From: Nemertoderma westbladi
Taxonomy: Eukaryota; Animalia; Xenacoelomorpha
Length of the DNA: 64,000 nt
Reading direction: 5' to 3'
NCBI GenBank assembly: GCA_032718475.1
Contig: JAUCBJ010004543.1
Span: 1-64,000 of the forward strand
Both the position numbers and the translations under genes were made by a program. The notes below the pieces were generated by a model that did not search any database, was not told the DNA's origin, and worked only from the letters and a program-made list of their open reading frames with translations. Within the stretch, counting starts at the first letter, position 1, and every line of letters starts with the position of its first letter. Positions 16,823-53,462 of the stretch are shown here, one piece after another.

Positions 16823-16857
16823 TATGGATTGATACTGATGGGCCACTAACAAACAGT

Positions 16858-17115: not shown

Positions 17116-17146
<31 letters not shown>

Positions 17147-20267: not shown

Positions 20268-20434
20268 ATCAAAGGCAAAGTAAGTTACTCCGTGGTTTAC
20301 AAAATGGAAACGATTATGTGTATAGTCAGTATTCTTTCAGTATTGTGCTTTCCCATTTTGGGCACACGCACTCGCTTAGGTAGAAGTGATTAATAATTTC
20401 TTCATTATCATATTTATTTTTACTTCATATTTAG

Positions 20435-22632: not shown

Positions 22633-25600
22633 ATAGCGATGGTACTGAAGTGACAGAAAAGCGAAAGTACCAGCCAGATGATAAAGAGTTGAAAGAAATC
22701 TTGAAGCAATGCGACGTTGATGAATCTGAATTATTGGAGAAGTCGCAGCAGCCATGTAGCGATTTCCCGTCTGAGGTTTACGACGCTAAGCGGTTTATGG
22801 GGAGTGAATCGCGTTCATTATTCGAGGAATCCCGCAGCTCATCTGGTCACCCGGATGTGCCGCGTCTCGATGACATATCTGGGACATCGACTCCCATATT
22901 GGAGTTCTCCGTTCAAACTGTAAAGATAGGACAAGAAATAGTTGGTGAAGAGCAGAGGTTTTTTATAGTTTCTAGGGTAACAATTGACAGCGAAGGGCGT
23001 AGAGTGGTAGAAAAACGACGTTGTGTTGATAGTGACCCGGAATTACTAATATTAATTAACCAAGGTAAACTGGGAAAGGTATCATCTCCCAGTGGCAATC
23101 GAGTTTATTGTGAAGAGGAATACGTGGAAGTTTGCTCTGTGACTACTGACAGTGAGGGTCGTCGGCTAATTGATTCCCAGAGATTCGCTTGTGACGATCC
23201 CCAACTTGAGTCTGTACTGAATTCGAATGCGGAATTCCGTCGGCGTCTGCAGGAACTTCGGAGTGACGCTGAACATTCCCAGGATCTCCTCGATGTTGGC
23301 GACTTGGCCGTCAGTCCTGATGGTGATTCCGGATTTACTTCACCCAGAGCGCGATTATTCCCAGTGAAGCAGTTGGAAAGCCCCGACGGCATTCCTGCCT
23401 CAGAGTTAGATATTGTAAAGGTTTCCATACAGTTAATCACTTTATCTCAGGAAGATCCTTCAGAAGGTTGGATTGTTCATACTCGAATCCTTATCGATGA
23501 TTCTAGCAAGTTTATTGTTCGGAAGAAACGATATCGACCTAATGATCCTGAGCTGGTAAAACTATTAGAATCTTCTCAAAGCAAACTCTATCGAAATCTC
23601 ACAAAAGATGAACTAGTTGAAGTAACTATGTATTATAATGCTGCTAAGAATAAAGAGGCCATAGTTGATACGAAACTTTATAGATTTGATGATCCTGACC
23701 TTAAGACTATTATAGTAAATAATGATTTGCAACAACAACTCAAGGAATTAAGGGGTTATCTTGCCTCACAATCTGAAAAAGACATTGACATTGCCAACTT
23801 AGATGGCACCAGACAACCTTCAGCCCCAATTAGTTTCAGTGATGCGGAGATTACACGTGAGCAATCTCATGTAACATCAATTTCTGTAATGGATAGTGTC
23901 AGTGATTCCGGCGAAAAGGTTGTATGCGTTCAAAAAATTATTGAGTGCATATCAGGTGAGAAGAAGGTAGTTCGCGACGATTATCCACCGGATCATGAAG
24001 TGGTTCGTGAACTCGAATCAAAAGGAATGATACCCAATCATCGTCCGTCTGGCGTACTATTTGATACTGGACCTTTACGAGATGGTCTTCCTTTGTTGAA
24101 AGACCAGTGGGTGCAGCGTAATGATCTACAGGAAGATCAATATGGACTTCAAGTCCAATTTCAAACTGTAACTATTGAGGAAGAAATTACAGAAATAGGC
24201 GAGCAAACTGTTTATTTCCGAAGGCCTTCCACACCACCCCAATATTCTGATTGGGGAGGTGATGGACCACATGGCGCCAGTCCAGATGGAGGACACATAG
24301 TTGATGCAGAAGGAGATATTGAACCTAATGTGGAATTTCGGTCCAAATTTGTTACTGAAGAAAATATAAGTCATTACGAACAAGAGATTAATCTTTCTTC
24401 TCCTGACGATTCCCATAGAGTGGTGGAGGAGGAACTTCCGGCAGGAATTTCTATTTCAAAACATAAATTATCTGCCTCTCCCCTCAATGAAATTCATATA
24501 AAAAGTTTGAAACTCCCATCATTACCTCAAATTATATCACCTCTAAATTTGTCTAATGATATTGAAGATGCTGATACTTCAGTTGATGTGGAGGTTACAG
24601 TCCAAACCTTGAGAACTGATGACCAATTTGTATTGGATGCTGGTGAAGAAATTGATGATGATAATGTTGAGTACGAGATAGAGTTTACAATTCAGACAAT
24701 AAAATCTACAGGTGAACGAGTCATTTTTCCTGAAAAGCTTTGCACTTTAAAGAAAATAAAACCTAATCCTGATGGACGGTTGGACGAATATATTTACCAT
24801 ATGTCTCACACAAGTGAAGAATTGCAGAATTTGATAAGATCAAATAAATTGCCATATTATACTTCAGAATTGATTATTGAAGTGCAACAACCCTTTGAAG
24901 GCCCTACAAGTGTTCAAACTGGTCGAATATTTGAAAAAATCACACATGACATTAAAGCTGTACGAGAGCTTTTTAAACTTAATGACAACATTAATCTTTC
25001 TGCAGAGTATACTATCCAAAAACTGAGAATTTGTGAAGATCATACTGAGGTTTCTGGTCAGATTGTATCTGTAAAAGTGAAATCTGACTCTCAAACTTTT
25101 GTTGAAGATATTTTCACAACTGATCATTTTGTTGTTTCTAATCTTATTGAAATAGGTATGTTCTCTGGTGATATTGTCGCACAAGATACTCCACTAGAGC
25201 CCAATGTTCTAGAAATGCGTTCTATTCAAGGAGATTTGGAAATTATGTCATCTAAGTGTTCTGTTAAACTGGTAAAGCCGGAGGAAATTTCTAATTTTTT
25301 TACTAAATTAAATCGAGCCTGGTCTAAAGACAAAGCCCCTCCTATTCATGTACCAACTGAAATACGTATTGAATCTCTCCAAGTGGCTCCAAAATCACCA
25401 ATCGAATCAGAACTGGATGACAGTGTGGTTGATGAATCAATAGACTACGACATTGAAATTTCAGTACAAACTAAGAAATTCACACAATTTAAACAGGGGG
25501 AACCTATCAGAGATCAATCACCATTGGAAAGTAATATTCCAGAGGTTGTGGAGGTAGAGATAAAACATCATGTTCATGAAACATTTGAACAATACCATGT

Positions 25601-28600
25601 TGAAACTGATATTGATAATGCCGAACATGCGAATAAGATATACAAAGTAGATCATAGTTCTATTGAAAAAGCAGTTTATCCAGAAGTGGCTACAGATGGA
25701 GTTTTGAAGCCGGAACATTTTAAACAGCCAGCTTTTTCTACTATAGATATTCGATCAGTAAAAGTTCCTGCACAACAGGCCATTTTGTTAGAAAATCCTC
25801 CATCTGATGATGTATTTGAAGAGGATGACACTGAATATGAGCTGATAATTACAGTCATGACATTAAAGAAAGATGTACTATCAGGTGTTCCTTTACGTAA
25901 AGTGATTTTAAAATCAACTGATAAAGGTGTTTCAAAAGAGAAAGATGTTGATATTGATAACCATGAGTTGGATGACTTAGAAATGATAGGTAGCCTCCCA
26001 AAGAATATAAGTGAACTCATTCTACGGAAAGAAAATATATGGCCTCTTTATAATTCGTCCATGACAGAAAGAGTGTTTGGATGTGTTAGTCAAGAGTTTC
26101 AATCCGTCTGTCAACGTTTGCAATCATTAACTCCTGAAAAAGTTATTCCCGTGCGATATGAAACGTATTTGGGTGAATCGGAGCGCTATGATATTGAAGT
26201 TGTCAAATTTCCACATCTAGAATTAACTGGGGATATTGACATTCCTGATAAATTAGTAGTAACTAGAGCTGTTATCCTGGACAATGACAAAGTGCAAGTC
26301 TCTCAAAGACATTCGCCGCAATCTCCACTTGTTCAATCATTTCTATCAGAATCTGTTTTGCAAAAATTAGATTTTGAAGAGCCTATTAACTACACTAATG
26401 TTGTTGAAGTTACACATGTATCAGCAACTTCCGAAGACATTACTACTACAGTGAAGATTAAGCCTTTCAAATCAACTCGAGATTTAATTCAATTTTTTCA
26501 AAGTTATGACGAGTATGAGTATACATTTAGTGTTGTGGAAACAACTATGACTCAGTCTGATAATGTTTCTGTTTTGATTCCAAAAAGAAATGTTTCCATT
26601 CAACCAATTGATATTCGTTCTGTGAAACGACCTCTCACACCGGACGTAGTTCCCGATTTTGAAGATCATGAGGCTATCATTGTAGATGATGAAGATTATG
26701 AATGTGAAATCACTGTTCTTACAATTAGGAGTGACACGAAGCCTGTTGAACCTTTAGGGTCTATAACATTGAAGCAAAAACATCATCAGGCAACTAAAGA
26801 TATTTTACTTCAACCTTTTGGCGATGAAATTAAAGGATATGAAACTCAAGGTAAAATTCCAAAGTTTACATCTGAGCTTATGGTAGGTACTAAAAATGTG
26901 TGGCAAAGTACAAAGCCTGAAATTAGTGCAAGCAAAGTCTTCGAAAGCATTGTAAGGGAAATCCACACTGTCAAGGAACTTCAAAATAGTGGAAATGTTT
27001 CATGTCAATTACAATTGGCCGATGAGGAATGTTCCATCGATATATATCGTTTTCCACAATCCCTTCATGATGAGTTTAATGAAGAAAAGGTTATTGTGAT
27101 ATCGTTAAATACAATTGATGAAAAAGGCCAACAAGTTTTTTTGCGAGAGCGTTATGCACCAGAATCAGCTCCTATCCAGGATCTGGTTTCAGAAGGTATT
27201 ATTCCCCTTGATATACTCAATCCCCAACTGGCTGTTGCTAATGTTTTTGAAACTACACACATTTTAATTACCCCTGAAGTAATTGAAGCAAGTGTTTCAA
27301 TAAAATCTGCCAGCTCTGAGACCTCAGTATCTAAATTGAAAGAATTATGTCAGATGTCAATGCAAGGTTCTTGTTTTGAGGAGCATAGTATTGATGAGAC
27401 AATTGAACATAAATATGAAGAAGTAGAATATGATGAGAAGATTTCAAAAGCGGAAGTAGATCTATTATTACCATCTGAAGTGGAAATGGCATTAACAAAA
27501 CCAGTATTAATGAGCCCCACTAAAGTTATGCTAAGAAGTGTTCGCCGTGGAGATGTTAATATTGATAATTCAGCACCTCCTGATACAACAAACATTAGTG
27601 ATTATGATGACTATGATATGACAATAACTGTACATACTAAAAGGGTTGAAGATGATATTGAGGAAGAGCTTATATTAGTAACAAAGCATGAAAGGGACGA
27701 GTTTGGTGAGCTTGTTGAACATCAAGAAGAATTTAAATATGATGACAAAGAACATCAAGAAAATTATACAACTCAGTTATTGGTTGATGTTCATCATAAG
27801 GAACATGCAGAATTATTAAGACGTAAGAAAGTGTATGAATTGATAGTTATTGATATGCTTAAAAGTGTTGAACTAACAGCTGCATTGGAACCTCAGTTGT
27901 TTCCACCATTACAGGAAATGAAAGCACACATACCGTGCAATATTGATGTTAGTGTTGTGACACAAACATCAATTGATTTAAGTGAACCACCAAAACAATT
28001 ATTTATTTTGGATGCTGATTTGGGTGCAGGATTATCTGTGAGGCGTAAATACAATATTAGTTATATAGATGTCAAGTCCTTAGTAGCTGAGGGTGCTATT
28101 TCACAAGAATTATTGCAAATCATTCCCCCTGAACCTAGTACACTACAGACTACTACCATTTCTACAACCCATGATGTAATTACTTCAAGAATCACATTAA
28201 AGTCAGGTATTGATGCAACGGAATTGTTTAACAGTTTAGTTGATATCCCTGAAGAACGAATTACATTTAAACCTTTGCAAGGTGAACAGGAAGTATATAT
28301 GACCTGCGTTTCTTCTGGCACAAATACTTTGTTACTTCATGGTCCAGGTGAAGTTCAAACAGAACAACTAATTGTCGAGGGTTCATATCCTCTATTTGGG
28401 CAACATATAGTTTCGGACCAGGTTACTTCTTCGCGAGTTCCAGATATCAAAGGTCCTATTATACCAATATCATCTATAAAGCATGGTAAAGCAGATATGA
28501 AATCTGTTGTAGTTGATAATACATCTATGATTTCTCACCCACCATTATCTTTAGAGTCAACAACAGTCACAAAACAGGCGGCTATAGCATCAGATAATGC

Positions 28601-31600
28601 TATTGAATTATGTATTGAAAGGGGTATGCCACATTTTGAATCGATTTCTATCAATGCTTCAGAACCATTTATTTCCAAACCTACTGAGATCCAGGAACTT
28701 TCATCTTCTACTATGCGTGATGTCTCTTTTACCTCAAATTTACAAACGCCTGATGCCAGAGCATTCGCTCTTCCAGATGGTATTCCTATTGAAGAATCTC
28801 ATAGTATTCCAGAAGAAGCAACATTAGTTGATTCTTCTATTGAAACATTTGAACCTCGAGCTCTTCCTCCTATTGTTCCAGAAGAAGTTTCTTCTAGAGG
28901 AATTTCAAAGGTGGAGGCAGTTCCTATTGAAGGTGTTGAGATTCAAGCTGAACCTCATATTGCAACTGAATATGTTTCCCAAATATTACAACCTGTTACT
29001 GAAGAGAGAGGTATACCTGAACAAGCGAAGCTTAGGGGACAACCAGTTCCACAACAATTAGAAACATTTGATGTTGAGCATCTTCCACAGCAGGTCACAG
29101 AGATGGATACTACTTCTCCAACACATATATCATCTGTGTTTACTGAACCGATTTCACAACATGAAACTGTATTGGGAGCTCCTCTACCAGAGCATGTTGA
29201 TATTGACAGTACAACTCCATTATATGAGACACCAGTAGATTTGAATAAATCGCTTTATTCTGATATCCATGACACTACTGAAGAAGCACATCCTGTGAAA
29301 CCAGTTGTAGAAGGCATGGCAGAATCTGATATTGTACAACTTACAGAATCATCCATCATTCCCAAACAATTAATGAAGTATGAACAAACTGTTTCGGAAA
29401 AAGTATTACATGATGTTAAACAGCCACATGTGCAACAACATTTAATTTTAGGTGAATATGAACCAGAACAAGTTCCAGTAGAAGGATTAGAGCCATTACC
29501 TAAACACCAGGTTTTATCTGAAGAGGTTAGTTCGTCTAGGTTACCCAATATAAAGGAGCCAGTTAATCCATTGAAAGCTACTGAATATGGAAAAGGAGAG
29601 CCTAAATCTATTCCAGTTGCTCATGCAGCTGATATTCCTCAAGTGCCAATCTCTTTTGAGTCAACCACAGAGTCGAAACTACCTCCTGTAGAATCAGATA
29701 AATTTGTTGAAATATGCACTGAAAGGGGTCTTCCACATTCTGAATCGATTTATATAGATGCATCAGAACCATTTATTTCCAAACCTACTGAGGTCCAGGA
29801 ACTTCCATCTTCTATTATCCGTGATGACACTTTAACCTCATATTTACAAATGCCTGATGCGAGAGCATTAGCTCTTCCAGAAGGTATTCCTATTGAAGAA
29901 TCTACTAGTATTCCTGCAGAAGTAACATTAGTTGATTCTTCTATTGAAACATTTGAACCTCGAGCTCTTCCTCCTATTGTTCCAGAAGAAGTTTCTTCTC
30001 ATGGAATTTCGAAATTGGAAACAGTCCCTATTGAAGGTGTTGAGCCTCAAGCTGAACCTCATATTGCAACTGAATATGTTTCCAAAATGTTACAACCTGT
30101 TACTGAAGAGAGAGGTATACCTGAACAAGCAAAGCTTAGGGGACAACCAGTTCCACAACAATTAGAAACATTTGATGTTGAGCATCTTCCACAGCAGGTC
30201 ACAGAGATGGATACTACTTCTCCAACACATATATCATCTGTGTTTACTGAACCGATTTCACAACATGAAACTATATTGGGAACCCCTCTACCAGAACATG
30301 TGGATATTGAAGGGACAACTCCATTATATGAGACACCAGTAGATTTGAATAAATTACTTTATTCTGATATCCATGACACTACTGAAGAAGCACATCCCGT
30401 CAAACCAGTTGTAGAAGGCATGGCAGAATCTGTTATGGTACAACTTACAGAATCAACCATTATTCCCAAACAATCATTGAGTTATGAAGAAACTGTTTCT
30501 GAAAAAGTATTGCCTGATATCAAGCATCCTCAGTTGGAACAGCCATTAATTTACGGACAATATGAACTGGAACAAGTACCAGTAGAAGGGTCAGAGCCAT
30601 TACCTAAACATCAGGTTTTATCTGAAGAGGTTAGTTCGTCTAGGTTACCCAATATAAAGGAGCCAGTTACTCCATTGAAAGCTACTGAATATGGAAAAGG
30701 AGAGCCTAAATCTATTCCAGTTGCTCATGCAGCTGATATTCCTCAAGTGCCAATCTCTTTTGAGTCAACCACGGAGTCGAAACTACCTCCTGTAGAATCA
30801 GATAAATTTATTGAAATATGCACTGAAAGGGGTCTTCCACAGTCTGAATCAATTTCCATTGATGCAGCAGAACCATTTATTTCCAAACCTACTGAAATCC
30901 AGGAACTTTCATCTTCTACTATGCGTGATGTCACTTTATCCTCAAATTTACAAACGCCTGATGCGAGAGCATTAGCTCTTCCAGAAGGTATTCCTATTGA
31001 AGAATCTACTAGTATTCCTGCAGAAGTAACATTAGTTGATTCTTCTATTGAAACATTTGAACCTCGAGCTCTTCCTCCTATTGTTCCAGAAGAAGTTTCT
31101 TCTCATGGAATTTCGAAATTGGAAACAGTCCCTATTGAAGGTGTTGAGCCTCAAGCTGAACCTCATATTGCAACTGAATATGTTTCCCAAATATTACAAC
31201 CTGTTACTGAAGAGAGAGGTAGACCTGAACAAGCGAAGCTTAGGGGACAACCAGTTCCACAACAATTAGAAACATTTGATGTTGAGCATCTTCCACAGCA
31301 GGTCACAGAGATGGATACTACTTCTCCAACACATATATCATCTGTGTTTACTGAACCGATTTCACAACATGAAACTATATTGGGAACCCCTCTACCAAAA
31401 CATGTGGATATTGAAGGTACAACTCCATTATATGAGACACCAGTAGATTTGAATAAATTGCTTTATTCTGATATCCATGACACTACTGAAGAAGCACATC
31501 CCGTGAAACCTGTTATAGAAGGCATGGCAGAATCTGTTACGGTACAACTTACAGAATCAACCATCATTCCCAAACAATCATTGAGTTATGAAGAAACTGT

Positions 31601-34600
31601 TTCTGAAAAAGTATTACCTGATATCAAGCATCCTCAGTTGGAACAGCCATTAATTTACGGACAATATGAACCGGAACAAGTACCACTAGAAGGGTCAGAG
31701 CCATTACCTAAACATCAGGTTTTATCTGAAGAGGTTAGTTCGTCTAGGTTACCCAATATAAAGGAGCCAGTTACTCCATTGAAAGCTACTGAATATGGAA
31801 AAGGAGAGCCTAAATCTATTCCAGTTGCTCATGCAGCTGATATTCCTCAAGTGCCAATCTCTTTTGAGTCAACCACGGAGTCGAAACTACCTCCTGTAGA
31901 ATCAGATAAATTTATTGAAATATGCACTGAAAGGGGTCTTCCACAGTCTGAATCAATTTCCATTGATGCAGCAGAACCATTTATTTCCAAACCTACTGAA
32001 ATCCAGGAACTTTCATCTTCTACTATGCGTGATGTCACTTTATCCTCAAATTTACAAACGCCTGATGCGAGAGCATTAGCTCTTCCAGAAGGTATTCCTA
32101 TTGAAGAATCTACTAGTATTCCTGCAGAAGTAACATTAGTTGATTCTTCTATTGAAACATTTGAACCTCGAGCTCTTCCTCCTATTGTTCCAGAAGAAGT
32201 TTCTTCTCATGGAATTTCGAAATTGGAAACAGTCCCTATTGAAGGTGTTGAGCCTCAAGCTGAACCTCATATTGCAACTGAATATGTTTCCCAAATATTA
32301 CAACCTGTTACTGAAGAGAGAGGTAGACCTGAACAAGCGAAGCTTAGGGGACAACCAGTTCCACAACAATTAGAAACATTTGATGTTGAGCATCTTCCAC
32401 AGCAGGTCACAGAGATGGATACTACTTCTCCAACACATATATCATCTGTGTTTACTGAACCGATTTCACAACATGAAACTATATTGGGAACCCCTCTACC
32501 AAAACATGTGGATATTGAAGGTACAACTCCATTATATGAGACACCAGTAGATTTGAATAAATTGCTTTATTCTGATATCCATGACACTACTGAAGAAGCA
32601 CATCCCGTGAAACCTGTTATAGAAGGCATGGCAGAATCTGTTACGGTACAACTTACAGAATCAACCATCATTCCCAAACAATCATTGAGTTATGAAGAAA
32701 CTGTTTCTGAAAAAGTATTACCTGATATCAAGCATCCTCAGTTGGAACAGCCATTAATTTACGGACAATATGAACCGGAACAAGTACCACTAGAAGGGTC
32801 AGAGCCATTACCTAAACATCAGGTTTTATCTGAAGAGGTTAGTTCGTCTAGGTTACCCAATATAAAGGAGCCAGTTACTCCATTGAAAGCTACTGAATAT
32901 GGAAAAGGAGAGCCTAAATCTATTCCAGTTGCTCATGCAGCTGATATTCCTCAAGTGCCAATCTCTTTTGAGTCAACCACAGAGTCGAAACTACCTCCTG
33001 TAGAATCAGATAAATTTATTGAAATATGCACTGAAAGGGGTCTTCCACAGTCTGAATCAATTTCCATCGATGCAGCAGAACCATTTATTTCCAAACCTAC
33101 TGAAATCCAGGAACTTTCATCTTCTACTATGCGTGATGTCACTTTATCCTCAAATTTACAAATGCCTGATGCGAGAGCATTAGCTCTTCCAGAAGGTATT
33201 CCTATTGAAGAATCTACTAGTATTCCTGCAGAAGTAACATTAGTTGATTCTTCTATTGAAACATTTGAACCTCGAGCTCTTCCTCCTATTGTTCCAGAAG
33301 AAGTTTCTTCTCATGGAATTTCGAAATTGGAAACAGTCCCTATTGAAGGTGTTGAGCCTCAAGCTGAACCTCATATTGCAACTGAATATGTTTCCAAAAT
33401 GTTACAACCTGTTACTGAAGAGAGAGGTATACCTGAACAAGCAAAGCTTAGGGGACAACCAGTTCCACAACAATTAGAAACATTTGATGTTGAGCATCTT
33501 CCACAGCAGGTCACAGAGATGGATACTACTTCTCCAACACATATATCATCTGTGTTTACTGAACCGATTTCACAACATGAAACTATATTGGGAACCCCTC
33601 TACCAGAACATGTGGATATTGAAGGGACAACTCCATTATATGAGACACCAGTAGATTTGAATAAATTACTTTATTCTGATATCCATGACACTACTGAAGA
33701 AGCACATCCCGTCAAACCAGTTGTAGAAGGCATGGCAGAATCTGTTATGGTACAACTTACAGAATCAACCATTATTCCCAAACAATCATTGAGTTATGAA
33801 GAAACTGTTTCTGAAAAAGTATTGCCTGATATCAAGCATCCTCAGTTGGAACAGCCATTAATTTTAGGAAAATATGAACCAGAACAAGTACCAGTAGAAG
33901 GATCAGAGCCATTACCTAAACATCAGGTTTTATCTGAAGAGGTTAGTTCGTCTAGGTTACCCAATATAAAGGAGCCAGTTACTCCATTGAAAGCTACTGA
34001 ATATGGAAAAGGAGAGCCTAAATCTATTCCAGTTGCTCATGCAGCTGATATTCCTCAAGTGCCAATCTCTTTTGAGTCAACCACGGAGTCGAAACTACCT
34101 CCTGTAGAATCAGATAAATTTATTGAAATATGCACTGAAAGGGGTCTTCCACAGTCTGAATCAATTTCCATTGATGCAGCAGAACCATTTATTTCCAAAC
34201 CTTCTGAAATCCAGGAACTTTCATCTTCTACTATGCGTGATGTCACTTTATCCTCAAATTTACAAACGCCTGATGCGAGAGCATTAGCTCTTCCAGAAGG
34301 TATTCCTATTGAAGAATCTACTAGTATTCCTGCAGAAGTAACATTAGTTGATTCTTCTATTGAAACATTTGAACCTCGAGCTCTTCCTCCTATTGTTCCA
34401 GAAGAAGTTTCTTCTCATGGAATTTCGAAATTGGAAACAGTCCCTATTGAAGGTGTTGAGCCTCAAGCTGAACCTCATATTGCAACTGAATATGTTTCCA
34501 AAATGTTACAACCTGTTACTGAAGAGAGAGGTATACCTGAACAAGCAAAGCTTAGGGGACAACCAGTTCCACAACAATTAGAAACATTTGATGTTGAGCA

Positions 34601-37600
34601 TCTTCCACAGCAGGTCACAGAGATGGATACTACTTCTCCAACACATATATCATCTGTGTTTACTGAACCGATTTCACAACATGAAACTATATTGGGAACC
34701 CCTCTACCAGAACATGTGGATATTGAAGGGACAACTCCATTATATGAGACACCAGTAGATTTGAATAAATTACTTTATTCTGATATCCATGACACTACTG
34801 AAGAAGCACATCCTGTCAAACCAGTTGTAGAAGGCATGGCAGAATCTGTTACGGTACAACTTACAGAATCAACCATCATTCCCAAACAATCATTGAGTTA
34901 TGAAGAAACTGTTTCTGAAAAAGTATTACCTGATATCAAGCATCCTCAGTTGGAACAGCCATTAATTTACGGACAATATGAACCGGAACAAGTACCACTA
35001 GAAGGGTCAGAGCCATTACCTAAACATCAGGTTTTATCTGAAGAGGTTAGTTCGTCTAGGTTACCCAATATAAAGGAGCCAGTTACTCCATTGAAAGCTA
35101 CTGAATATGGAAAAGGAGAGCCTAAATCTATTCCAGTTGCTCATGCAGCTGATATTCCTCAAGTGCCAATCTCTTTTGAGTCAACCACAGAGTCGAAACT
35201 ACCTCCTGTAGAATCAGATAAATTTATTGAAATATGCACTGAAAGGGGTCTTCCACAGTCTGAATCAATTTCCATCGATGCAGCAGAACCATTTATTTCC
35301 AAACCTACTGAAATCCAGGAACTTTCATCTTCTACTATGCGTGATGTCACTTTATCCTCAAATTTACAAATGCCTGATGCGAGAGCATTAGCTCTTCCAG
35401 AAGGTATTCCTATTGAAGAATCTACTAGTATTCCTGCAGAAGTAACATTAGTTGATTCTTCTATTGAAACATTTGAACCTCGAGCTCTTCCTCCTATTGT
35501 TCCAGAAGAAGTTTCTTCTCATGGAATTTCGAAATTGGAAACAGTCCCTATTGAAGGTGTTGAGCCTCAAGCTGAACCTCATATTGCAACTGAATATGTT
35601 TCCAAAATGTTACAACCTGTTACTGAAGAGAGAGGTATACCTGAACAAGCAAAGCTTAGGGGACAACCAGTTCCACAACAATTAGAAACATTTGATGTTG
35701 AGCATCTTCCACAGCAGGTCACAGAGATGGATACTACTTCTCCAACACATATATCATCTGTGTTTACTGAACCGATTTCACAACATGAAACTATATTGGG
35801 AACCCCTCTACCAGAACATGTGGATATTGAAGGGACAACTCCATTATATGAGACACCAGTAGATTTGAATAAATTACTTTATTCTGATATCCATGACACT
35901 ACTGAAGAAGCACATCCCGTCAAACCAGTTGTAGAAGGCATGGCAGAATCTGTTATGGTACAACTTACAGAATCAACCATTATTCCCAAACAATCATTGA
36001 GTTATGAAGAAACTGTTTCTGAAAAAGTATTGCCTGATATCAAGCATCCTCAGTTGGAACAGCCATTAATTTTAGGAAAATATGAACCAGAACAAGTACC
36101 AGTAGAAGGATCAGAGCCATTACCTAAACATCAGGTTTTATCTGAAGAGGTTAGTTCGTCTAGGTTACCCAATATAAAGGAGCCAGTTACTCCATTGAAA
36201 GCTACTGAATATGGAAAAGGAGAGCCTAAATCTATTCCAGTTGCTCATGCAGCTGATATTCCTCAAGTGCCAATCTCTTTTGAGTCAACCACGGAGTCGA
36301 AACTACCTCCTGTAGAATCAGATAAATTTATTGAAATATGCACTGAAAGGGGTCTTCCACAGTCTGAATCAATTTCCATTGATGCAGCAGAACCATTTAT
36401 TTCCAAACCTTCTGAAATCCAGGAACTTTCATCTTCTACTATGCGTGATGTCACTTTATCCTCAAATTTACAAACGCCTGATGCGAGAGCATTAGCTCTT
36501 CCAGAAGGTATTCCTATTGAAGAATCTACTAGTATTCCTGCAGAAGTAACATTAGTTGATTCTTCTATTGAAACATTTGAACCTCGAGCTCTTCCTCCTA
36601 TTGTTCCAGAAGAAGTTTCTTCTCATGGAATTTCGAAATTGGAAACAGTCCCTATTGAAGGTGTTGAGCCTCAAGCTGAACCTCATATTGCAACTGAATA
36701 TGTTTCCAAAATGTTACAACCTGTTACTGAAGAGAGAGGTATACCTGAACAAGCAAAGCTTAGGGGACAACCAGTTCCACAACAATTAGAAACATTTGAT
36801 GTTGAGCATCTTCCACAGCAGGTCACAGAGATGGATACTACTTCTCCAACACATATATCATCTGTGTTTACTGAACCGATTTCACAACATGAAACTATAT
36901 TGGGAACCCCTCTACCAGAACATGTGGATATTGAAGGGACAACTCCATTATATGAGACACCAGTAGATTTGAATAAATTACTTTATTCTGATATCCATGA
37001 CATTACTGAAGAAGCACATCCCGTCAAACCAGTTGTAGAAGGCATGGCAGAATCTGTTATGGTACAACTTACAGAATCAACCATTATTCCCAAACAATCA
37101 TTGAGTTATGAAGAAACTGTTTCTGAAAAAGTATTGCCTGATATCAAGCATCCTCAGTTGGAACAGCCATTAATTTTAGGAAAATATGAACCAGAACAAG
37201 TACCAGTAGAAGGATCAGAGCCATTACCTAAACATCAGGTTTTATCTGAAGAGGTTAGTTCGTCTAGGTTACCCAATATAAAGGAGCCAGTTACTCCATT
37301 GAAAGCTACTGAATATGGAAAAGGAGAGCCTAAATCTATTCCAGTTGCTCATGCAGCTGATATTCCTCACGTGCCAATCTATTTTGAGTCAACCACAGAG
37401 TCAAAACTACCCCCTGTAGAATCAGATAAATTTGTTGAAATATGCACTGAAAGGGGTCTTCCACATTCTGAATCGATTTATATAGATGCATCAGAACCAT
37501 TTATTTCCAAGCATACTGAGGTCCAGGAACTTCCATCTTCTATTATCCGTGATGACACTTTAACCTCATATTTACAAATGCCTGATGCGAGAGCATTAGC

Positions 37601-40600
37601 TCTTCCAGAAGGTATTCCTATTGAAGAATCTACTAGTATTCCTGCAGAAGTAACATTAGTTGATTCTTCTATTGAAACATTTGAACATCGAGCTCTTCCT
37701 CCTATTGTTCCAGAAGAAGTTTCTTCTCATGGAATTTCGAAATTGGAAACAGTCCCTATAGAAGGTGTTGAGCCTCAAGCTGAACCTCATATTGCAACTG
37801 AATATGTTTCCCAAATATTACAACCTGTTACTGAAGAGAGAGGTAGACCTGAACAAGCGAAGCTTAGGGGACAACCAGTTCCACAACAATTAGAAACATT
37901 TGATGTTGAGCATCTTCCACAGCAGGTCACAGAGATGGATACTACTTCTCCGACACATATATCATCTGTGTTTACTGAACCGATTTCACAACATGAAACT
38001 ATATTGGGAACCCCTCTACCAGAACATGTGGATATTGAAGGTACAACTCCATTATATGAGACACCAGTAGATTTGAATAAATTGCTTTATTCTGATATCC
38101 ATGACACTACTGAAGAAGCACATCCCGTGAAACCAGTTATAGAAGGCATGGCAGAATCTGTTACGGTACAACTTACAGAATCAACCAGCATTCCCAAACA
38201 ATCATTGAGTTATGAAGAAACTGTTTCTGAAAAAGTATTACCTGATATCAAGCATCCTCAGTTGGAACAGCCATTAATTTACGGACAATATGAACTGGAA
38301 CAAGTACCAGTAGAAGGGTCAGAGCCATTACCTAAACATCAGGTTTTATCTGAAGAGGTTAGTTCGTCTAGGTTACCCAATATAAAGGAGCCAGTTACTC
38401 CATTGAAAGCTACTGAATATGGAAAAGGAGAGCCTAAATCTATTCCAGTTGCTCATGCAGCTGATATTCCTCAAGTGCCAATCTCTTTTGAGTCAACCAC
38501 GGAGTCGAAACTACCTCCTGTAGAATCAGATAAATTTATTCAAATATGCACTGAAAGGGGTCTTCCACAGTCTGAATCAATTTCCATTGATGCAGCAGAA
38601 CCATTTATTTCCAAACCTACTGAAATCCAGGAACTTTCATCTTCTACTATGCGTGATGTCACTTTATCCTCAAATTTACAAACGCCTGATGCGAGAGCAT
38701 TAGCTCTTCCAGAAGGTATTCCTATTGAAGAATCTACTAGTATTCCTGCAGAAGTAACATTAGTTGATTCTTCTATTGAAACATTTGAACCTCGAGCTCT
38801 TCCTCCTATTGTTCCAGAAGAAGTTTCTTCTCATGGAATTTCGAAATTGGAAACAGTCCCTATTGAAGGTGTTGAGCCTCAAGCTGAACCTCATATTGCA
38901 ACTGAATATGTTTCCAAAATGTTACAACCTGTTACTGAAGAGAGAGGTATACCTGAACAAGCAAAGCTTAGGGGACAACCAGTTCCACAACAATTAGAAA
39001 CATTTGATGTTGAGCATCTTCCACAGCAGGTCACAGAGATGGATACTACTTCTCCAACACATATATCATCTGTGTTTACTGAACCGATTTTACAACATGA
39101 AACTATATTGGGAACCCCTCAACCAGAACATGTGGATATTGAAGGGACAACTCCATTATATGAGACACCAGTAGATTTGAATAAATTACTTTATTCTGAT
39201 ATCCATGACACTACTGAAGAAGCACATCCCGTCAAACCAGTTGTAGAAGGCATGGCAGAATCTGTTATGGTACAACTTACAGAATCAACCATTATTCCCA
39301 AACAATCATTGAGTTATGAAGAAACTGTTTCTGAAATAGTATTGCCTGATATCAAGCATCCTCAGTTGGAACAGCCATTAATTTTAGGACAATATGAACC
39401 AGAACAAGTACCAGTAGAAGGATCAGAGCCATTACCTAAACATCAGGTTTTATCTGAAGAGGTTAGTTCGTCTAGGTTACCCGATATAAAGGAGCCAGTT
39501 ACTCCATTGAAAGCTACTGAATATGGAAAAGGAGAGCCTAAATCTATTCCAGTTGCTCATGCAGCTGATATTCCTCAAGTGCCAATCTCTTTTGAGTCAA
39601 CCACAGAGTCAAAACTACCCCCTGTAGAATCAGATAAATTTGTAGAAATATGCACTGAAAGGGGTCTTCCACTTTCTGAATCGATTTCTATTGATGCATC
39701 AGAACCAGTTATTTCCAAACCTACTGAGATCCAGGAACTTTCATCTTCTATTATACGTGATGAAACTTTGACCTCAAATTTACAAACGCCTGATGCTAGA
39801 GCATTTGGTCTTCCAGGTGGTATTCCTATTGAAGAATCTACTAGTATTCCTAAAGAAGCAACATTAGTTGATTCTTCTATTGAAACATTTGAACCTCAAG
39901 CGTTTCCTCCTATTGTTCCAGATGAAGTTTCTTCTAGAGGAATATCAAAGATGGAGGCAGTTCCTATTGAAGATGTGGAGATTCAAATGAAGCCATATAT
40001 TGCAACTGAATATGTTTCAATGAAGTCAATGCCATTCGCTGAAGAAAGAAGTTTACTTAGTAATAAGTCTGAACAATGGGGAAGACCTGCTCCACACAAT
40101 TTAGAAACGTTTGATGTACAACATCTTTCACAAGATGTATTAGAAATGGATGCCACTTCCCCAACTCAGATTGTTTCAGTATGTTCTAAACCCTCCACAC
40201 AACTTGAAGTCGTTTTGGGAGCTCCTCTTCCAGAAACCATTGTTATTGAAGGAACTACACCATTTAATGAAATGCCAGTTGATTTGAATAAATTGCTTTA
40301 TTATAATATCCATGACACTACTGAAGAGGCACAGCATGCCAAACCAATAGTGGAAGGCATTGCAGAATCTGATATGGTACAACTTACAGAATCATCCATC
40401 ATTCCCAAACAATTAATGAAGTATGAACAAACTGTTTCGGAAAAAGTATTACATGATGTTAAACAGCCACATGTGCAACAACATTTAATTTTAGGTGAAT
40501 ATGAACCAGAACAAGTTCCAGTAGAAGGATTAGAGCCATTACCTAAACACCAGGTTTTATCTGAAGAGGTTAGTTCGTCTAGGTTACCTGATATAAAAGA

Positions 40601-43600
40601 GCCAGTTACTCCATTGAAAGCTACTGAATATGGAAAAGGAGAGTCTAAATCTATTCCAGTTGCTCATGCAGCTGATATTCCTCAAGTGCCAATTTATTTT
40701 GAGTCAACAACAGAGTCAAAACTACCCCCTGTAGAATCAGATAAATTTGTTGAAATATGCACTGAAAGGGGTCTTCCACATTCTGAATCGATTTCTATTG
40801 ATGCATCAGAACCATTTATTTCCAAACCTACTGAAATCCAGGAACTTTCATCTTCTACTATGCTTGATATCACTTTATCCTCAAATTTACAAACGCCTGA
40901 TGCTAGAGCATTTGGTCTTCCAGATGGTATTCCTATTGAAGAATCTACTAGTATTCCTAAAGAAGCAACATTAATTGATTCTTCTATTGAAACATTTGAA
41001 CCTCGAGCTCTTCCTCCTATTGTTCCAGAAGAAGTTTCTTCAAGAGGAATTTCAAAGGTGGAGGCAGTTCCTCTTGAAGGTGTTGAGCCTCAAGCTGAAC
41101 CTCATATTGCAACTGAATATGTTTCCAAAATGTTACAACCTGTTACTGAAGAGAGAGGTATACCTGAACAAGCGAAGCTTAGGGGACAACCAGTTCCACA
41201 ACAATTAGAAACATTTGATGTTGAGCATCTTCCAAAGCAGGTCACAGAGATGGATACCACTTCTCCGACACATATATCATCTGTGTTTACTGAACCGATT
41301 TCACAACATGAAACTATATTGGGAACCCCTCTACCAGAACATGTGAATATTGAAGGGACAACTCCATTATATGAGACACCAGTAGATTTGAATAAATTGC
41401 TTTATTCTGATATCCATGACACTACTGAAGAAGCACATCCCGTGAAACCAGTTGTAGAAGGCATGGCAGAATCTGTTACGGTACAACTTACAGAATCAAC
41501 CATTATTCCCAAACAATCATTGAGTTATGAAGAAACTGTTTCTGAAAAAGTATTGCCTGATATCAAGCATCCTCAGTTGGAACAGCCATTAGTTTTAGGA
41601 CAATATGAACCAGAACAAGTTCCAGTAGAAGGATCAGAGCCATTACCTAAACACCAGGTTTTATCTGAAGAGGTTAGTTCGTCTAGGTTACCCGATATAA
41701 AGGAGCCAGTTACTCCATTGAAAGCTACTGAATATGGAAAAGGAGAGCCTAAATCTATTCCAGTGGCTCATGCAGCTGATATTCCTCAAGTGCCAATCTA
41801 TTTTGAGTCAACCACAGAGTCGAAACTACCTCCTGTAGAATCAGATAAATTTGTTGAAATATGCACTGAAAGGGGTCTTCCACATTCTGAATCGATTTCT
41901 ATTGATGCTTCAGAACCATTTGTTTCCAAACCTACTGAGGTCCAGGAACTTTCATCTTCTACTATGCGTGATGTCACTTTATCCTCAAATTTACAAACGC
42001 CTGATGCCAGAGCATTCGCTCTTCCAGATGGTATTCCTATTGAAGAATCTACTAGTATTCCTAAAGAAGTAACATTAGTTGATTCTTCTATTGAAACATT
42101 TGAACCTCAAGCGTTATCTCCTATTGTTCCAGAAGAAGTTTCTTCTAGAGGAATTTCAAAGGTTGTTGCAGTTCCTATTGAAGATGTGGAGATTCAAATG
42201 AAGCCATATATTGCAACTGAATATGTTTCGATGAAGTCAATGCCACTCGCTGAAGAAAGAAGTTTACTTAGTAATAAGTCTGAACAATGGGGAAGATCTG
42301 CTCCACACCATTTAGAAACGTTTGATGTACAACATCTTTCACAAGATGTATTAGAAATGGATGCCACTTCCCCAACTCAGATAGTTTCAGTATGTTCTAA
42401 ACCCTCCACACAACTTGAAGTCGTTTTGGGAGCTCCTCTTCCAGAAACCATTGTTATTGAAGGAACTACACCATTTAATGAAATGCCAGTTGATTTGAAT
42501 AAATTGCTTTATTATAATATCCATGACACTACTGAAGAGGCACAGCTTGCCAAACCAATAGTGGAAGGCATTGCAGAATCTGATATGGTACAACTTACAG
42601 AATCATCCATCATTCCCAAACAATTAATGAAGTATGAACAAACTGTTTCGGAAAAAGTATTACATGATGTTAAACAGCCACATGTGCAACAACATTTAAT
42701 TTTAGGTGAATATGAACTAGAACAAGTTCCAGTAGAAGGATTAGAGCCATTACCTAAATACCAGGTTTTATCTGAAGAGGTTAGTTCGTCTAGGTTACCT
42801 GATATAAAGGAGCCAGTTACTCCATTGAAAGCTACTGAATTTGGAAAAGGAGAGCCTAAATCTATTCCAGTTGCTCATGCAGCTGATATTCCTCAAGTAC
42901 CAATATCTTTTGAGTTAACCACAGAGTCAAAACTACCCCCTGTAGAATCAGATAAATTTGTTGAAATATGCACTGAAAGGGGTCTTCCACATTCTGAATC
43001 GATTTCTATTGATGCATTAGAACCATTTATTTCCAAACCTACTGAAATCCAGGAACTTTCATCTTCTACTATGCGTGATATCACTTTATCCTCAAATTTA
43101 CAAACGCCTGATGCCAGAGCATTTGGTCTTCCAGATGGTATTCCTATTGAAGAATCTACTAGTATTCCTAAAGAAGTAACATTAGTTGATTCTTCCATTG
43201 AAACATTTGAACCTCGAGCTCTTCCTCCTATTGTTCCAGAAGAAGTTTCTTCTAGAGGAATTTCAAAGGTGGAGGCAGTTCCTCTTGAAGGTGTTGAGCC
43301 TCAAGCTGAACCTCATAGTGCAACTGAATATGTTTCCAAAATGTTACAACCTGTTACTGAAGAGAGAGGTATACCTGAACAAGCGAAGCTTAGGGGACAA
43401 CCAGTTCCACAACAATTAGAAACATTTGATGTTGAGCATCTTCCAAAGCAAGTCACAGAGATGGATACCACTTCTCCGACACATATATCATCTGTGTTTA
43501 CTGAACCGATTTCACAACATGAAACTGTATTGGGAACCCCTCTACCAGAACATGTGAATATTGAAGGGACAACTCCATTATATGAGACACCAGTAGATTT

Positions 43601-46600
43601 GAATAAATTGCTTTATTCTGATATCCATGACACTACTGAAGAAGCACATCCCGTGAAACCAGTTATAGAAGGCATGGCAGAATCTGTTACGGTACAACTT
43701 ACAGAATCAACCATTATTCCCAAACAATCATTGAGTTATGAAGAAACTGTTTCTGAAAAAGTATTGCCTGATATCAAGCATCCTCAGTTGGAACAGCCAT
43801 TAATTTTAGGACAATATGAATCAGAACAAGTACCAGTAGAAGGATCAGAGCCATTACCTAAACATCAGGTTTTATCTGAAGAGGTTAGTTCGTCTAGGTT
43901 ACCAGATATAAGGGAGCCAGTTACTCCATTGAAAGCTACTGAATATGGAAAAGGAGAGCCTAAATCTATTCCAGTTGCTCATGCAGCTGATATTCCTCAA
44001 GTGCCAATATCTTTTGAGTCAACCATAGAGTCAAAACTACCACCTGTAAAATCAGATAAATTTGTTGAAATATGCACTGAAAGGGGTCTTCCACATTCTG
44101 AATCGATTTCTATTGATGCTTCAGAACCATTTATTTCCAAACCTACTGAGATCCAGGAACTTTCATCTTCTACTATGCGTGATATCTCTTTCACCTCTAA
44201 TTTACAAACGCCTGATGCCAGAGCATTCGCTCTTCCAGATGGTATTCCTATTGAAGAATCTACTAGTATTCCTAAAGAAGTAACATTAGTTGATTCTTCT
44301 ATTGAAACATTTGAACCTCAAGCGTTTCCTCCTATTGTTCCAAATGAAGTTTCTTCTAGAGGAATATCAAAGATGGAGGCAGTTCCTATTGAAGATGTGG
44401 AGATTCAAATGAAGCCATATATTGCAACTGAATATGTTTCAATGACGTCAATGCCATTCGCTGAAGAAAGAAGTTTACTTAGTAATAAGTCTGAACAATG
44501 GGGAAGACCTGTTCCACACAATTTAGACTCTTTTGATGTACAACATCTTTCACAAGAGGTAATAGAAATGGATGCCACTTCCCCAACTCAGATAGTTTCA
44601 GTATGTTCTAAACCTTCCGCACAACTTGAAGTCGTTTTGGGAGCTCCTCTTCCAGAAACTATTGTTATTGAAGGAACTACACCATTTAATGAAATGCCAG
44701 TAGATTTGAATAAATTGCTTTATTTCGATATCAATGACACTACTGAAGAAGCACATCATGTGAAACCAGTTGTAGAAGGCATGGCAGAATCTGTTATGGT
44801 ACAACTTACAGAATCAACCATCATTCCCAAACAATCACTGAGTTATGAAGAAACTGTTTCGGAAAAAGTGTTGCCTGATATCAAGCATCCTCAGTTGGAA
44901 CAGCCATTAATTTTAGGACAATATGAACCAGAACAAGTTCCAGTAGAAGGATCAGAGCCATTACCTAAACATCAGGTTTTATCTGAAGAGGTTAGTTCAT
45001 CTAAGTTACCTGATATAAAAGAGCCAGTTACTCCATTGAAAGCAACAGAATATGGTCAGGCATATGCTGAAAGTATTCCAGTTGATGGATCGGAACCACT
45101 TGATTCACATTTCAAGGTTGATGAGCTTTCACCAACACCGGTTCATAGTGTTAGTGAAGCTATTGCTATTTGTGAAACAAAATTTCCTTCCATGGGTAAA
45201 CCAAAAATGGACATTGTCTTTGTAGAGGGTGTTGAACCTCATATACAGCCACATGTTGCACAAGAATATGCTTCTCAGCTATCTGAAATTCTTACTAAGC
45301 AACAAATTGGTCCAACAAAGCCAGAGCTTAGAGGTCACCCCGTTCCTGATAAGTTAGCAACTGTCAATTCAAAGCATCTTCCTCATCAGGTTATTGAGAT
45401 TAATACAATTTCCCCCGAAATGATTTCTTCTATACTTTCAGAACCAACTGCTCATCATGAAGTAGTTATGGGAGTGCCTCATTTGGAGCACATTAAAATA
45501 GAAGACGTTCTACCACTTGTTGATGCACCTGTAGATTTAAATAACTTGTTATACACTTCAGTCTTTGATACCAAAAATACTGCAACATCTAGTAAACCAC
45601 ATATTGATAGTCTGGCAGAAGTCATTAATATTCATCTGAATGAAACTGAAACTTTGCCAGTAACTACAATTCCATTATCTGAAATTTCAAGTGAAAGAGT
45701 TTCTAGTGATTCCCGGGAAGCTAAAGTGGATTATCCAATATTTATGGGTGCACCCAAGAGAGATAATCTTGAATTAGAAACATTGCCTAGATTATCCAAA
45801 CCTAATTTTAAAGTTGAGAGAATTACTCAATTTGGATGCCCTGATTTGGCAGAGTCTGCATTGCAGCAGCAACCTACAGGGAGAGGACTTCCAGCATCTG
45901 AAAATATTATAATTGAGAAACCATTAGGGATCACTGACTTGCCTATTGAAAGCAATTTTTCCTTTAAGTCAAATATTCCAGTTTTTGAACCAGCACCATT
46001 GCAGATAGCAGAGCCAATGGAATTGCACATTCTTCAACAAAGTGGCAGTGAGAGTGTGCATATTTCTAGTTTGGTCAATGAATCAAATTTCTACTCTGAT
46101 GTTTCATACACAAAAAGCGAAGATGTTTTCAGGGAAGAAGCCATGGATAAAGATGTGGAATCTTTTATAAAGCAGAAAGGAACATCTTTCAAGGTGTCAA
46201 AGAATATCATTCTTTGTGAGGAAATTCCCAGCTTGTTGACAGTAAATAATGAACGTTCTCATGTACGTTCTATAGATGTTAAGGCAATCAGGTCTTCCAC
46301 ATTGGAAGAGCAGTTGAGTAATTCAGATATTAATTGTATAGAAGTTGCTGCTTATTCTCCTCCATTACCATTGCCACTTACAATTAAACAAGTTAAACAA
46401 GGAGCAGGGCAGTTTCTAACAACTTATGAACACTCAGATTATCATTCTAAATTTTCTTCTTTGGTCACAGATATTCAAGAATCCATTGAATGTCATAAAA
46501 TTCGTCATGTAATTCCCACTTTGGAAGCTCTTCCTTTTGATTCAATTCCAGAAGTCCAATCAACTCCTCAATTCAGGTTGCAAGATTCTTCGATTTTTGG

Positions 46601-53301: not shown

Positions 53302-53462
53302 AGATTCCTTGAGTTCTGGGACGCTACCGTTGGATCTACCGTTCCGTATTCTTCGTCAACCGGTTCAGCAACTACTCTACCTCCAACCGGTTACCGCCGC
53401 TGAGCTAACCAAGCCTGTGGATGAACTACCGGACGCTGAATGGGAAGAAACTGATGAGACAG
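53302..53462 (+). CDS. Exon (phase 2->1)
   Basis: cccatag| acceptor; DSLSSGTLPLDLP..EWEETDET; ag|gtaagg donor. Confidence 0.8.

What the first reader, a model, noticed from the sequence alone, without database searches (positions are those of the whole stretch)
28347..46022. Hidden hierarchical super-repeat: each 368-aa unit is exactly 8 x 46 aa (about 128 sub-repeats)
Seen: counted by hand, the unit splits without gaps into eight 46-residue blocks. They begin GKYEPEQVPVEGSEP, GKGEPKSIPVAHAAD, GLPQSESISIDAAEP, ALALPEGIPIEESTS, GISKLETVPIEGVEP, GQPVPQQLETFDVEH, GTPLPEHVDIEGTTP and GMAESVMVQLTESTI (consensus G-x4-E-x-[IV]-x-[IV]-x4-P). The blocks are highly diverged from one another yet length-invariant, and the register persists in the old diverged tail (starts 45195, 45333, 45471, 45609, 45747, 45885). 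Known: nebulin (7 x ~35 aa) and titin use super-repeats matched to filament periodicity, and Drosophila Ank2-XL uses a repeat tract as a spacer. Inference: strict length conservation points to a periodic binding or ruler element, or a solenoid, attached to a plakin cytolinker. I do not recognise this repeat family.
Basis: partly seen in the sequence, partly recalled or inferred. Interest (0 to 1): 0.9.

Follow-up and report, generated by a model that had tools for sequence, protein, structure and literature searches.

The report
Length-locked 46-residue array, giant cytolinker exon
A 30-kilobase exon of what is likely an animal cytoskeleton-linker (plakin-type) gene encodes 128 very diverged copies of a 46-residue repeat that almost never change length, which likely act as a flexible spacer carrying evenly spaced docking sites, while the eight-copy 'super-repeat' is likely just the most recently copied block.

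Summary
Window 28347-46022 encodes 128 blocks, 124 of 46 aa and 4 of 47 aa, in one stop-free 30,355-nt exon. The period is far beyond chance (z 17.7 against shuffles; each of 8 block types matches the other seven, z 4.5-7.6). It is kept at protein level: second codon positions agree (z 17.5) while four-fold sites are saturated. Blocks 17% identical keep their length better than a folded module in the same exon, so 46 is probably selected. The 8x level looks historical: units are 78-100% identical DNA mosaics, 3 of 15 are 369 aa, and the old tail breaks the eight-block order. No relative was found in Pfam, the PDB or 1.84 billion proteins. The array is acidic and 11% proline, with no confident fold. 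Upstream exons look like a plakin domain (weak Pfam hit), and the exon sits where Shot's large exon sits. Best reading: a mostly unfolded giant-exon spacer, like Ank2-XL's, with one short strand-type docking motif every 46 residues. The partner is unknown. A filament ruler or a solenoid is not excluded and not shown. No RNA evidence was obtained.

The parts
28347..46022 (+). Array of 128 blocks (124 x 46 aa, 4 x 47 aa), 5,892 aa; pattern G1, acidic 6, hydrophobic 8 and 10, acidic 11, hydrophobic 16, 21, 23, acidic 24, hydrophobic 31, Pro 32
28347..29450 (+). Unit 0, diverged 5' edge unit (78-85% DNA identity to the others; blocks 0-1 old, block 7 of B type)
29451..39386 (+). Units 1-9, homogeneous A-type 1,104-nt units, 95.7-100% identical
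39387..44915 (+). Units 10-14, B/A alternation (1,107 + 1,104 nt); B units carry the 47-aa type-4 block
44916..46022 (+). Old tail: type 0, one 47-aa unassigned block, types 4-7, two unassigned blocks; 46 register kept, 8-block order broken
22633..52987 (+). Giant exon, 30,355 nt, AG/GT ends, about 10,117 codons without a stop; length is not a multiple of 3, so it cannot be skipped alone in frame
   Evidence: splice model from sequence only, no RNA
22633..28346 (+). N flank (about 1,900 aa): dispersed ~72-aa modules and 4-5 copies of a second, acidic strand-rich repeat
46023..52987 (+). C flank (about 2,320 aa): 12 or more dispersed ~72-aa modules at variable spacing
50871..51086 (+). Example ~72-aa module; predicted four strands and one helix, pLDDT 89.5; no clear known fold
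2249..11315 (+). Seven small exons (2249-2453, 2794-2937, 3087-3276, 3404-3542, 4129-4325, 9331-9716, 11200-11315) splicing in frame to 459 helical residues; likely the C-terminal half of a plakin domain
14103..20952 (+). Six linking exons (14103-14218 is only a phase-compatible candidate; 15241-15379, 15537-15674, 15926-16163, 17344-17836, 20435-20952); the last three carry ~72-aa modules
53302..64000 (+). Downstream exons 53302-53462, 57739-58181 and 63269 to the window end; more ~72-aa modules; gene runs off the window

Best explanation
The array is 128 copies of a 46-residue block in one giant exon of a likely plakin-family cytolinker gene, and it likely works as a mostly unfolded, acidic, proline-rich spacer that presents one short strand-like docking motif every 46 residues. 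Shown: the period, its retention at protein level, the near-fixed length and the in-frame exon chain. Inferred: the motif (G-x4-E-x-hydrophobic-x-hydrophobic-E-x4-hydrophobic-P) would add as an edge strand to a repeated partner, in the manner of a tandem beta-zipper (concept recalled). Many weak sites would give avid, stretchable binding, and the partner's lattice would fix the spacing at about 14-17 nm when extended. The 8-block (368-aa) and 16-block levels likely record the last rounds of unequal crossing-over and are not matched to anything. The partner is probably a cytoskeletal polymer but is not identified.
For: Period real. Similarity between 10 block types sits at codon position 2 (z 17.5) and 1 (z 7.1); four-fold sites agree at 0.385 against 0.382 expected, so this is selection on protein and not leftover DNA likeness. 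dN/dS between copies is 0.30-0.62 over 13 unit pairs; G1 and column 10 hardly change (pN 0.03 and 0.02 against 0.18 overall). Two +1 length changes over a tree of 24-29 substitutions per site, against core lengths of 55-62 in 13 folded modules of the same exon over a tree of similar length (Levene p 0.0004). In simulation, 0-1 of 6,000 runs stay this uniform at 1 indel per 100 substitutions or more often, and 55 of 6,000 at 1 per 100 with the tree halved. Composition: Pro 11%, net charge -0.10 per residue, aromatic 3.8%, S+E 23%, close to giant-ankyrin long exons (about 25% S+E; PMC5135030). AlphaFold2 on one unit without alignment: pLDDT 41, no fold. 8-block level recent and mosaic.
Against: No partner, expression or protein evidence. 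Disorder is not proven: the model had no alignment, V+I+L is about 24%, and FoldIndex is about 0 and does not separate the array (0.021) from the folded modules (0.031). Constraint is not confined to the motif half: dN/dS is 0.54, 0.48 and 0.64 for columns 1-17, 18-31 and 32-46, and hydrophobic columns recur through the whole block, which suits a fold as well. The indel test against the module weakens if fewer of its 13 gap patterns are real events (p 0.007, 0.05, 0.19 for 13, 9, 6). The simulation's indel rates are my assumptions and branch lengths are saturated. An array with indels would be less likely to be noticed at all. Plakin identity rests on one Pfam hit under the curated cut-off.
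Confidence: 0.5

Rival explanations
1. Plain entropic spacer: only total length and composition matter, as proposed for Ank2-XL, and the 46-aa regularity is a relic of an old tandem duplication.
For: Giant-exon repeat arrays of 12-76 aa arise independently in many lineages, are recognisable only between close species, and only part of the Ank2-XL array is needed (PMC5135030 passages and Table S4). dN/dS is a relaxed 0.55. The hierarchy 23-46-92/184-368-737 reads as successive doublings.
Against: Synonymous sites between types are saturated while the residue pattern and the length persist. A pure spacer has no reason to hold G1 and columns 8, 10 and 16 in 10-11 of 11 types.
Confidence: 0.2
2. 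Folded repeat: each block forms two 23-residue coils of a beta-solenoid or a small stacked module, giving a stiff rod hundreds of nanometres long.
For: Fixed length is typical of solenoids (established knowledge). A 23-aa half-period (p about 0.01) matches the coil size of beta-helices (recalled). Hydrophobic content is high, and constraint is spread along the block.
Against: Pro is 11% and sits between the two core hydrophobics in 5 of 11 types; there are no Asn, Cys or aromatic ladders. Period-2 hydrophobicity is not significant (z 1.1). The single-sequence model shows no strands (weak evidence).
Confidence: 0.15
3. Nebulin-type ruler: 46 matches a filament subunit and 8 x 46 matches a longer filament repeat, so the array measures or templates a filament.
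For: Extended lengths fall near known lattices: 46 aa = 14.3 nm at 0.31 nm per residue (myosin crown spacing, recalled), 23 aa = 8.0 nm at 0.35 nm (tubulin dimer, recalled), 368 aa = 114-129 nm. Block types keep their identity across A, B and tail copies.
Against: These matches depend on the rise chosen. The 8-block order fails in the oldest part, 3 of 15 units are 369 aa, and units are recent mosaics. Nebulin's super-repeat is always seven modules in 53 species and carries fixed motifs (PMC7754682 passages); 0 such motifs occur here. The chain is acidic, like the actin and tubulin surfaces (recalled).
Confidence: 0.12
4. Not translated, or an assembly artefact.
For: No transcript was seen here; the exact copy number rests on the window's assembly alone.
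Against: About 10,117 codons without a stop, canonical splice sites in frame with 16 other exons, dN/dS under 1, independent contigs at both ends with no net frameshift listed in the exon.
Confidence: 0.03

Closest known systems
Repeat arrays in giant-ankyrin long exons, e.g. Drosophila Ank2-XL (93 x 76 aa; PMC5135030)
   Same: One very long exon in a cytoskeletal scaffold gene; Ser/Glu-rich (23% here, about 25% there); tandem array without detectable relatives outside close species; proposed spacer.
   Different: Host is plakin-like, not an ankyrin. None of the listed ankyrin repeats is 46 aa (Table S4). Ank2-XL repeats are highly alike, whereas here the basic blocks are 17% identical yet length-locked, under a younger 8-block unit.
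Large plakin-repeat exon of spectraplakins: Drosophila Shot B (10,497 nt, 33 dispersed repeats; PMC2173965), BPAG1b, MACF1b, VAB-10A (PMC3352950)
   Same: Large exon placed right after a plakin-like helical domain, with dispersed hairpin-plus-helix modules at variable spacing.
   Different: Three times longer. Modules do not match the Pfam plectin repeat or plakin structures and are predicted as four strands plus one helix. A 5,892-aa 46-mer array is inserted among them. The modules continue over several exons, and the exon cannot be skipped alone.
Nebulin super-repeats (7 x ~30-35 aa; PMC7754682)
   Same: Diverged simple repeats grouped in a higher-order unit whose copy number can vary.
   Different: 46 not 35 aa, eight not seven, no SDxxYK or WLKGIGW, Pro-rich, single exon; the higher-order unit is recent and is not kept along the array.
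MAP6 Mc modules (PMC8131560; length 46 aa is recalled, not seen in the passages read)
   Same: Tandem repeats of variable copy number in a cytoskeletal protein; the same recalled length.
   Different: Mammal-specific, 1-6 copies, calmodulin-binding; not found by the 46-mer profile.
Tandem beta-zipper repeats of bacterial fibronectin-binding proteins (recalled)
   Same: Unfolded, acidic, Gly-anchored repeats with short alternating hydrophobic motifs at fixed spacing that bind a periodic partner as edge strands.
   Different: No sequence relation; an analogy for mechanism only.

Membership tests
Plakin / spectraplakin | Plakin domain of spectrin repeats | tested here: inconclusive
   PF18373 Spectrin_2 on exon 2249-2452, E 3-5e-4, 21 bits against cut-off 26.4; the other 6 of 7 exons give no plakin family; 459 spliced residues show 3.5-residue helical periodicity, z 7.8; 3 exons searched against the PDB gave no plakin. 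Exon order resembles the later plectin repeats by recall only.
Plakin / spectraplakin | Actin-binding CH pair and SH3 insert upstream; spectrin rod, EF hands and GAR domain downstream | not testable with these tools
   Outside the window; no genome is held for it.
Plakin / spectraplakin | Large exon directly after the plakin domain | tested here: met
   17-exon chain in frame, 11,570 aa, 0 stops, with one candidate linking exon; Shot arrangement from PMC2173965 section 5.
Plakin repeat domain (38-aa hairpin plus two helices) | Pfam or structural match of the dispersed ~72-aa module | tested here: inconclusive
   0 of 18 members match a plectin family; PDB profile searches give no plakin; model has four strands and one helix; best structural Z 4.9, no plakin listed.
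Nebulin super-repeat | 30-35-aa modules with SDxxYK | tested here: not met
   Blocks are 46 aa; 0 SDxxYK in 5,892 aa (definition).
Nebulin super-repeat | Seven-module unit with WLKGIGW, kept along the array | tested here: not met
   Eight blocks, 0 motif matches, order broken in the tail.
Giant ankyrin | Ankyrin repeats, ZU5-ZU5-UPA, death domain | tested here: not met
   No such Pfam family on any exon scanned within the window; the gene's ends lie outside the window.
Giant-ankyrin-type long-exon spacer (works like) | S+E about 25%, S/E/T/D/K/P over 55% | tested here: inconclusive
   Array: 23.4% and 51.0%; flanks 18-20% and 43-45% (reference). Close, slightly under.
Titin PEVK | About 70% P, E, V, K (recalled) | tested here: not met
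   38.6%.
Beta-solenoid | Proline-free stacked strands with inward ladders | tested here: inconclusive
   Pro 11%, no ladders; single-sequence model not confident.
MAP6 Mc modules | Sequence similarity; mammal-restricted | tested here: not met
   The 46-mer profile found 1 protein at E up to 0.001 among 1.84 billion, and it is not MAP6.

The most novel reading that the evidence does not exclude
An undescribed periodic filament-binding repeat: 128 motifs spaced 46 (2 x 23) residues apart lie along a cytoskeletal polymer, one per 14-16 nm lattice step. This would let a plakin-family cytolinker coat or measure up to about 2 micrometres of filament, flanked by dozens of copies of a small domain of no known fold that has replaced the plakin repeats.
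Probability: 0.2. Interest if true: 0.85.

Novelty: new variant of a known kind. Interest (0 to 1): 0.5.

Why it matters
Giant-exon repeat tracts of cytoskeletal scaffolds are usually treated as lineage-specific filler whose sequence does not matter. This one keeps a residue pattern and an exact length after its synonymous sites have saturated, which points to a periodic partner or a fold. It gives a clean test of whether such spacers are passive. If the motif binds a filament, it would be a new multivalent binding element in the plakin family. The same exon also carries a well-predicted small domain with no clear known fold where plakin repeats are expected. Against that, no relative, partner or transcript is in hand, and hierarchical amplification of coding repeats is common.

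Tried and rejected
Homology searches that found nothing: Pfam on the array, flanks and all 21 aligned blocks; PDB sequences with the 46-mer profile; word-index searches with one unit, the C flank and the module alignment (only proteins up to 2,000 aa were candidates, so weak); metagenome contigs with the unit and the C flank. The profile search of 1.84 billion representatives gave 1 hit (E 1e-5), a bacterial protein with a long repetitive helical-type tract matched on profile positions 16-39 only; rejected as compositional. The ESM Atlas could not read the sequence. No whole genome is held. No RNA holder listed. Self-association of four copies of one block gave no verdict: score 0.00, alignment not used; this is no evidence either way. 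A module-plus-block complex was not run. Fold searches of the ~72-aa module listed no plakin chain and nothing above Z 4.9, which does not exclude a relation. A 7.7-residue hydrophobic sub-period seen by eye was not significant. Known linear motifs: SxIP-like 5 per unit against 1.4 shuffled (p 0.012, one of four motifs tried); 11 pass a strict no-acid filter recalled from the EB1 literature, 9 of them in type-0 blocks, so they do not explain the 46 period; LC8, PxIxIT and LIR patterns were not enriched. Hidden compensated indels: 3 of 45 type pairs prefer a shifted second half at p under 0.05, about what chance gives. Alignment A1 was discarded because overlapping rows were staggered. Literature: 10 searches found no description of a 46-aa repeat array in a plakin; the library lacks most subscription journals. 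Earlier scan notes: none for this genome or sequence.
Full report
What is there. The + strand has a frame open from 22518 to 52988. Splice-site inspection gives an exon 22633-52987 (30,355 nt, AG/GT). It chains in frame with 12 upstream and 3 downstream exons to 11,570 aa with 0 stops; one linking exon (14103-14218) is only a phase-compatible candidate, and without it the chain breaks. The gene runs off both ends of the window. The introns hold minisatellites and retroelement fragments. With the small spliced exons, this marks an animal genome (inference); no genome or name is held.

The observation. 28347-46022 splits into 128 blocks, 124 of 46 aa and 4 of 47 aa: 15 full 8-block units and an 8-block tail. 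On one unit, 46 is the best of all periods from 15 to 184 (z 18.1). The gapless alignment of the eight types scores 437 against -885 +/- 75 for shuffles and -878 +/- 91 for rotated blocks, with 0 of 20,000 reaching it in each control. Each type matches the other seven at z 4.5-7.6. Over 11 independent types the kept columns are G1 (10 of 11), acidic 6, 11 and 24 (8 of 11 each), hydrophobic 8 (11), 10 (10), 16 (10), 31 (8), 21, 23 and 39 (7 each), and Pro 32 (6). The profile finds no further copy in the flanks. Short-read contigs of runs X1-X3 (2 samples, 2 studies; one may be the window's source) run from the N flank into unit 0 and from the tail through the C flank. The array is collapsed at about 7-16 times flank depth. 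The only listed length change in the unique exon parts is an in-frame 6-nt insertion. A fourth run, X5, covered 4 of 30 bins and adds little.

Is 46 selected? Among 10 types (eight plus two tail blocks), identity exceeds codon-shuffled controls at position 2 (0.459 against 0.291, z 17.5) and position 1 (z 7.1) but hardly at position 3 (z 2.2). Four-fold sites agree in 72 of 187 cases (0.385; 0.382 expected). The DNA likeness has therefore decayed and the pattern is held at protein level. dN/dS between unit copies is 0.30-0.62 (13 pairs). A tree of 20-21 distinct blocks is 24-29 substitutions per site long and needs two +1 length changes. As an internal control, 13 copies of a folded module from the same exon, on a tree of 21 substitutions per site, have core lengths 55-62 and 13 gap patterns. 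The spread differs at p 0.0004 (Levene); the event-count test gives p 0.007, 0.05 or 0.19 if 13, 9 or 6 of those patterns are real events. Simulated with assumed indel rates, the observed uniformity arises in 0-1 of 6,000 runs at 1 indel per 100 substitutions or more often, 0.9% at 1 per 200 and 10% at 1 per 400; with the tree halved it is 0.9%, 11% and 35% at 100, 200 and 400. I take selection on length as likely but not proven.

Is 8 x 46 functional? Probably not. Units 1-9 are 95.7-100% identical in DNA. Units 10, 12 and 14 are a 369-aa variant alternating with 368-aa units. Unit 0 and unit 14 are mosaics of A and B blocks. The oldest part, the tail, reads type 0, one unassigned block, types 4-7 (18, 22, 21 and 11 of 46 identical; grouped with those types at bootstrap 76-87), then two unassigned blocks. 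Blocks four and two apart are more alike than odd neighbours (p 0.03), and a 23-aa half-period shows weakly (p about 0.01). This is the trace of successive doublings, 23-46-92/184-368-737. Nebulin, by contrast, always has seven modules per super-repeat in 53 species, with SDxxYK and WLKGIGW (PMC7754682, passages); neither motif occurs here.

Shape. The array is 11% Pro, 3.8% aromatic, net -0.10 per residue, pI 4.4, PEVK 39%. AlphaFold2 without alignment gives pLDDT 41 and no fold, which is weak evidence. Proline lies between the two core hydrophobics in 5 of 11 types. That is bad for a stacked beta-solenoid but tolerated in an edge strand bound to a partner (established knowledge). Extended, a block spans 14-17.5 nm and the array 1.8-2.2 micrometres; as a coil, about 35 nm radius of gyration by a recalled scaling law.

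Host gene. The first seven exons give 459 residues with strong 3.5-residue helical periodicity (z 7.8). The first hits Pfam Spectrin_2 (PF18373) at E 3-5e-4, below the curated cut-off. PDB sequence searches with 3 of these exons gave no plakin. That the exon series resembles the later repeats of the plectin plakin domain is my recall. In Drosophila shot a 10,497-nt exon right after the plakin domain encodes 33 dispersed hairpin-helix repeats (PMC2173965, passages and section 5; other spectraplakins in PMC3352950, passages). Here the same position holds a dispersed ~72-aa module: 24 of 35 hits were kept by an iterated profile, 17 of them in the giant frame (E-values circular). With a 21-row alignment it folds confidently (pLDDT 89.5; four strands, one helix), yet matches no Pfam family and no solved chain above Z 4.9 of 48,161. 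It may be a far-diverged or replacement plakin repeat; that is unresolved. 'Plakin cytolinker' is thus likely, not established.

Relatives. None found: Pfam, PDB, word-index searches limited to 2,000 aa, metagenome contigs. The profile search of 1.84 billion representatives returned 1 protein, a bacterial repeat protein hit on part of the profile, rejected. Giant eukaryotic proteins may be under-represented in these collections, so absence is moderate evidence. Jegla et al. (PMC5135030, passages and Table S4) report that giant-ankyrin long exons often hold arrays of 12-76 aa units recognisable only among close species, with about 25% S+E; none listed is 46 aa. MAP6 Mc modules (PMC8131560, passages) are mammal-specific; their 46-aa length is recalled. 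PMC6141585 was seen only as a search listing. Ten literature searches found no 46-aa array in a plakin.

Mechanism and verdict. Most likely (0.5) the array is a mostly unfolded giant-exon spacer with a selected motif spacing: about 128 weak strand-type sites binding a periodic partner with avidity, between clusters of small folded modules, downstream of a plakin-like rod. Rivals: passive spacer (0.2), solenoid (0.15), nebulin-type 8 x 46 ruler (0.12), untranslated or artefact (0.03). It works like the Ank2-XL spacer and sits like the Shot large exon; it is a member of neither repeat family. Novelty: new variant of a known kind, with an undescribed repeat. Interest 0.5.

Noticed in passing
window 15926-64000 (24 kept hits; e.g. 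50871-51086): Dispersed ~72-aa module, predicted four strands plus one helix at pLDDT 89.5, with no Pfam, PDB-sequence or clear fold match; it sits where plakin repeats are expected. May deserve its own follow-up.
   Followed up: partly
window 24480, 25347, 25731, 26595, weakly 27519: A second repeat in the N flank, 4-5 copies: a basic-hydrophobic strand, an acidic stretch, then an alternating hydrophobic strand ending in Thr.
   Followed up: partly
window 4317-7206: 37-bp minisatellite, 78 copies, starting at the donor of exon 4129-4325; its consensus unit contains the donor-like word GAG/GTGAGT, so the intron begins with a long run of possible 5' splice sites.
   Followed up: no
window 14255-14906 and 58423-62188; 54109-55812; 1891-2148: Intronic minisatellites: the same 36-bp unit at two places (18 and 104 copies), a 22-bp unit (77 copies) and a 27-bp unit (10 copies); they create long spurious open frames.
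   Followed up: no
window 18043-19371 and 56398-57241: Broken non-LTR retrotransposon reverse-transcriptase fragments in introns (RVT_1, E 9e-25 and 4e-4).
   Followed up: no
window 9922-10613: Fragments that look like a GIY-YIG endonuclease end of a Penelope-type element by recall; Pfam gave no hit.
   Followed up: partly
type-0 blocks, columns 27-35 (e.g. within 33867-34004): Nine copies of an SxLP site in a Ser-rich, non-acidic context, a possible EB-binding motif; later units carry Asp next to it.
   Followed up: partly
window 24705-24726 and 46778: All three deep runs differ from the window at five clustered bases (24705-24726); two runs carry an in-frame 6-nt insertion behind 46778. Of 25 listed C-flank differences, 10 are synonymous and 15 are not.
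   Followed up: no
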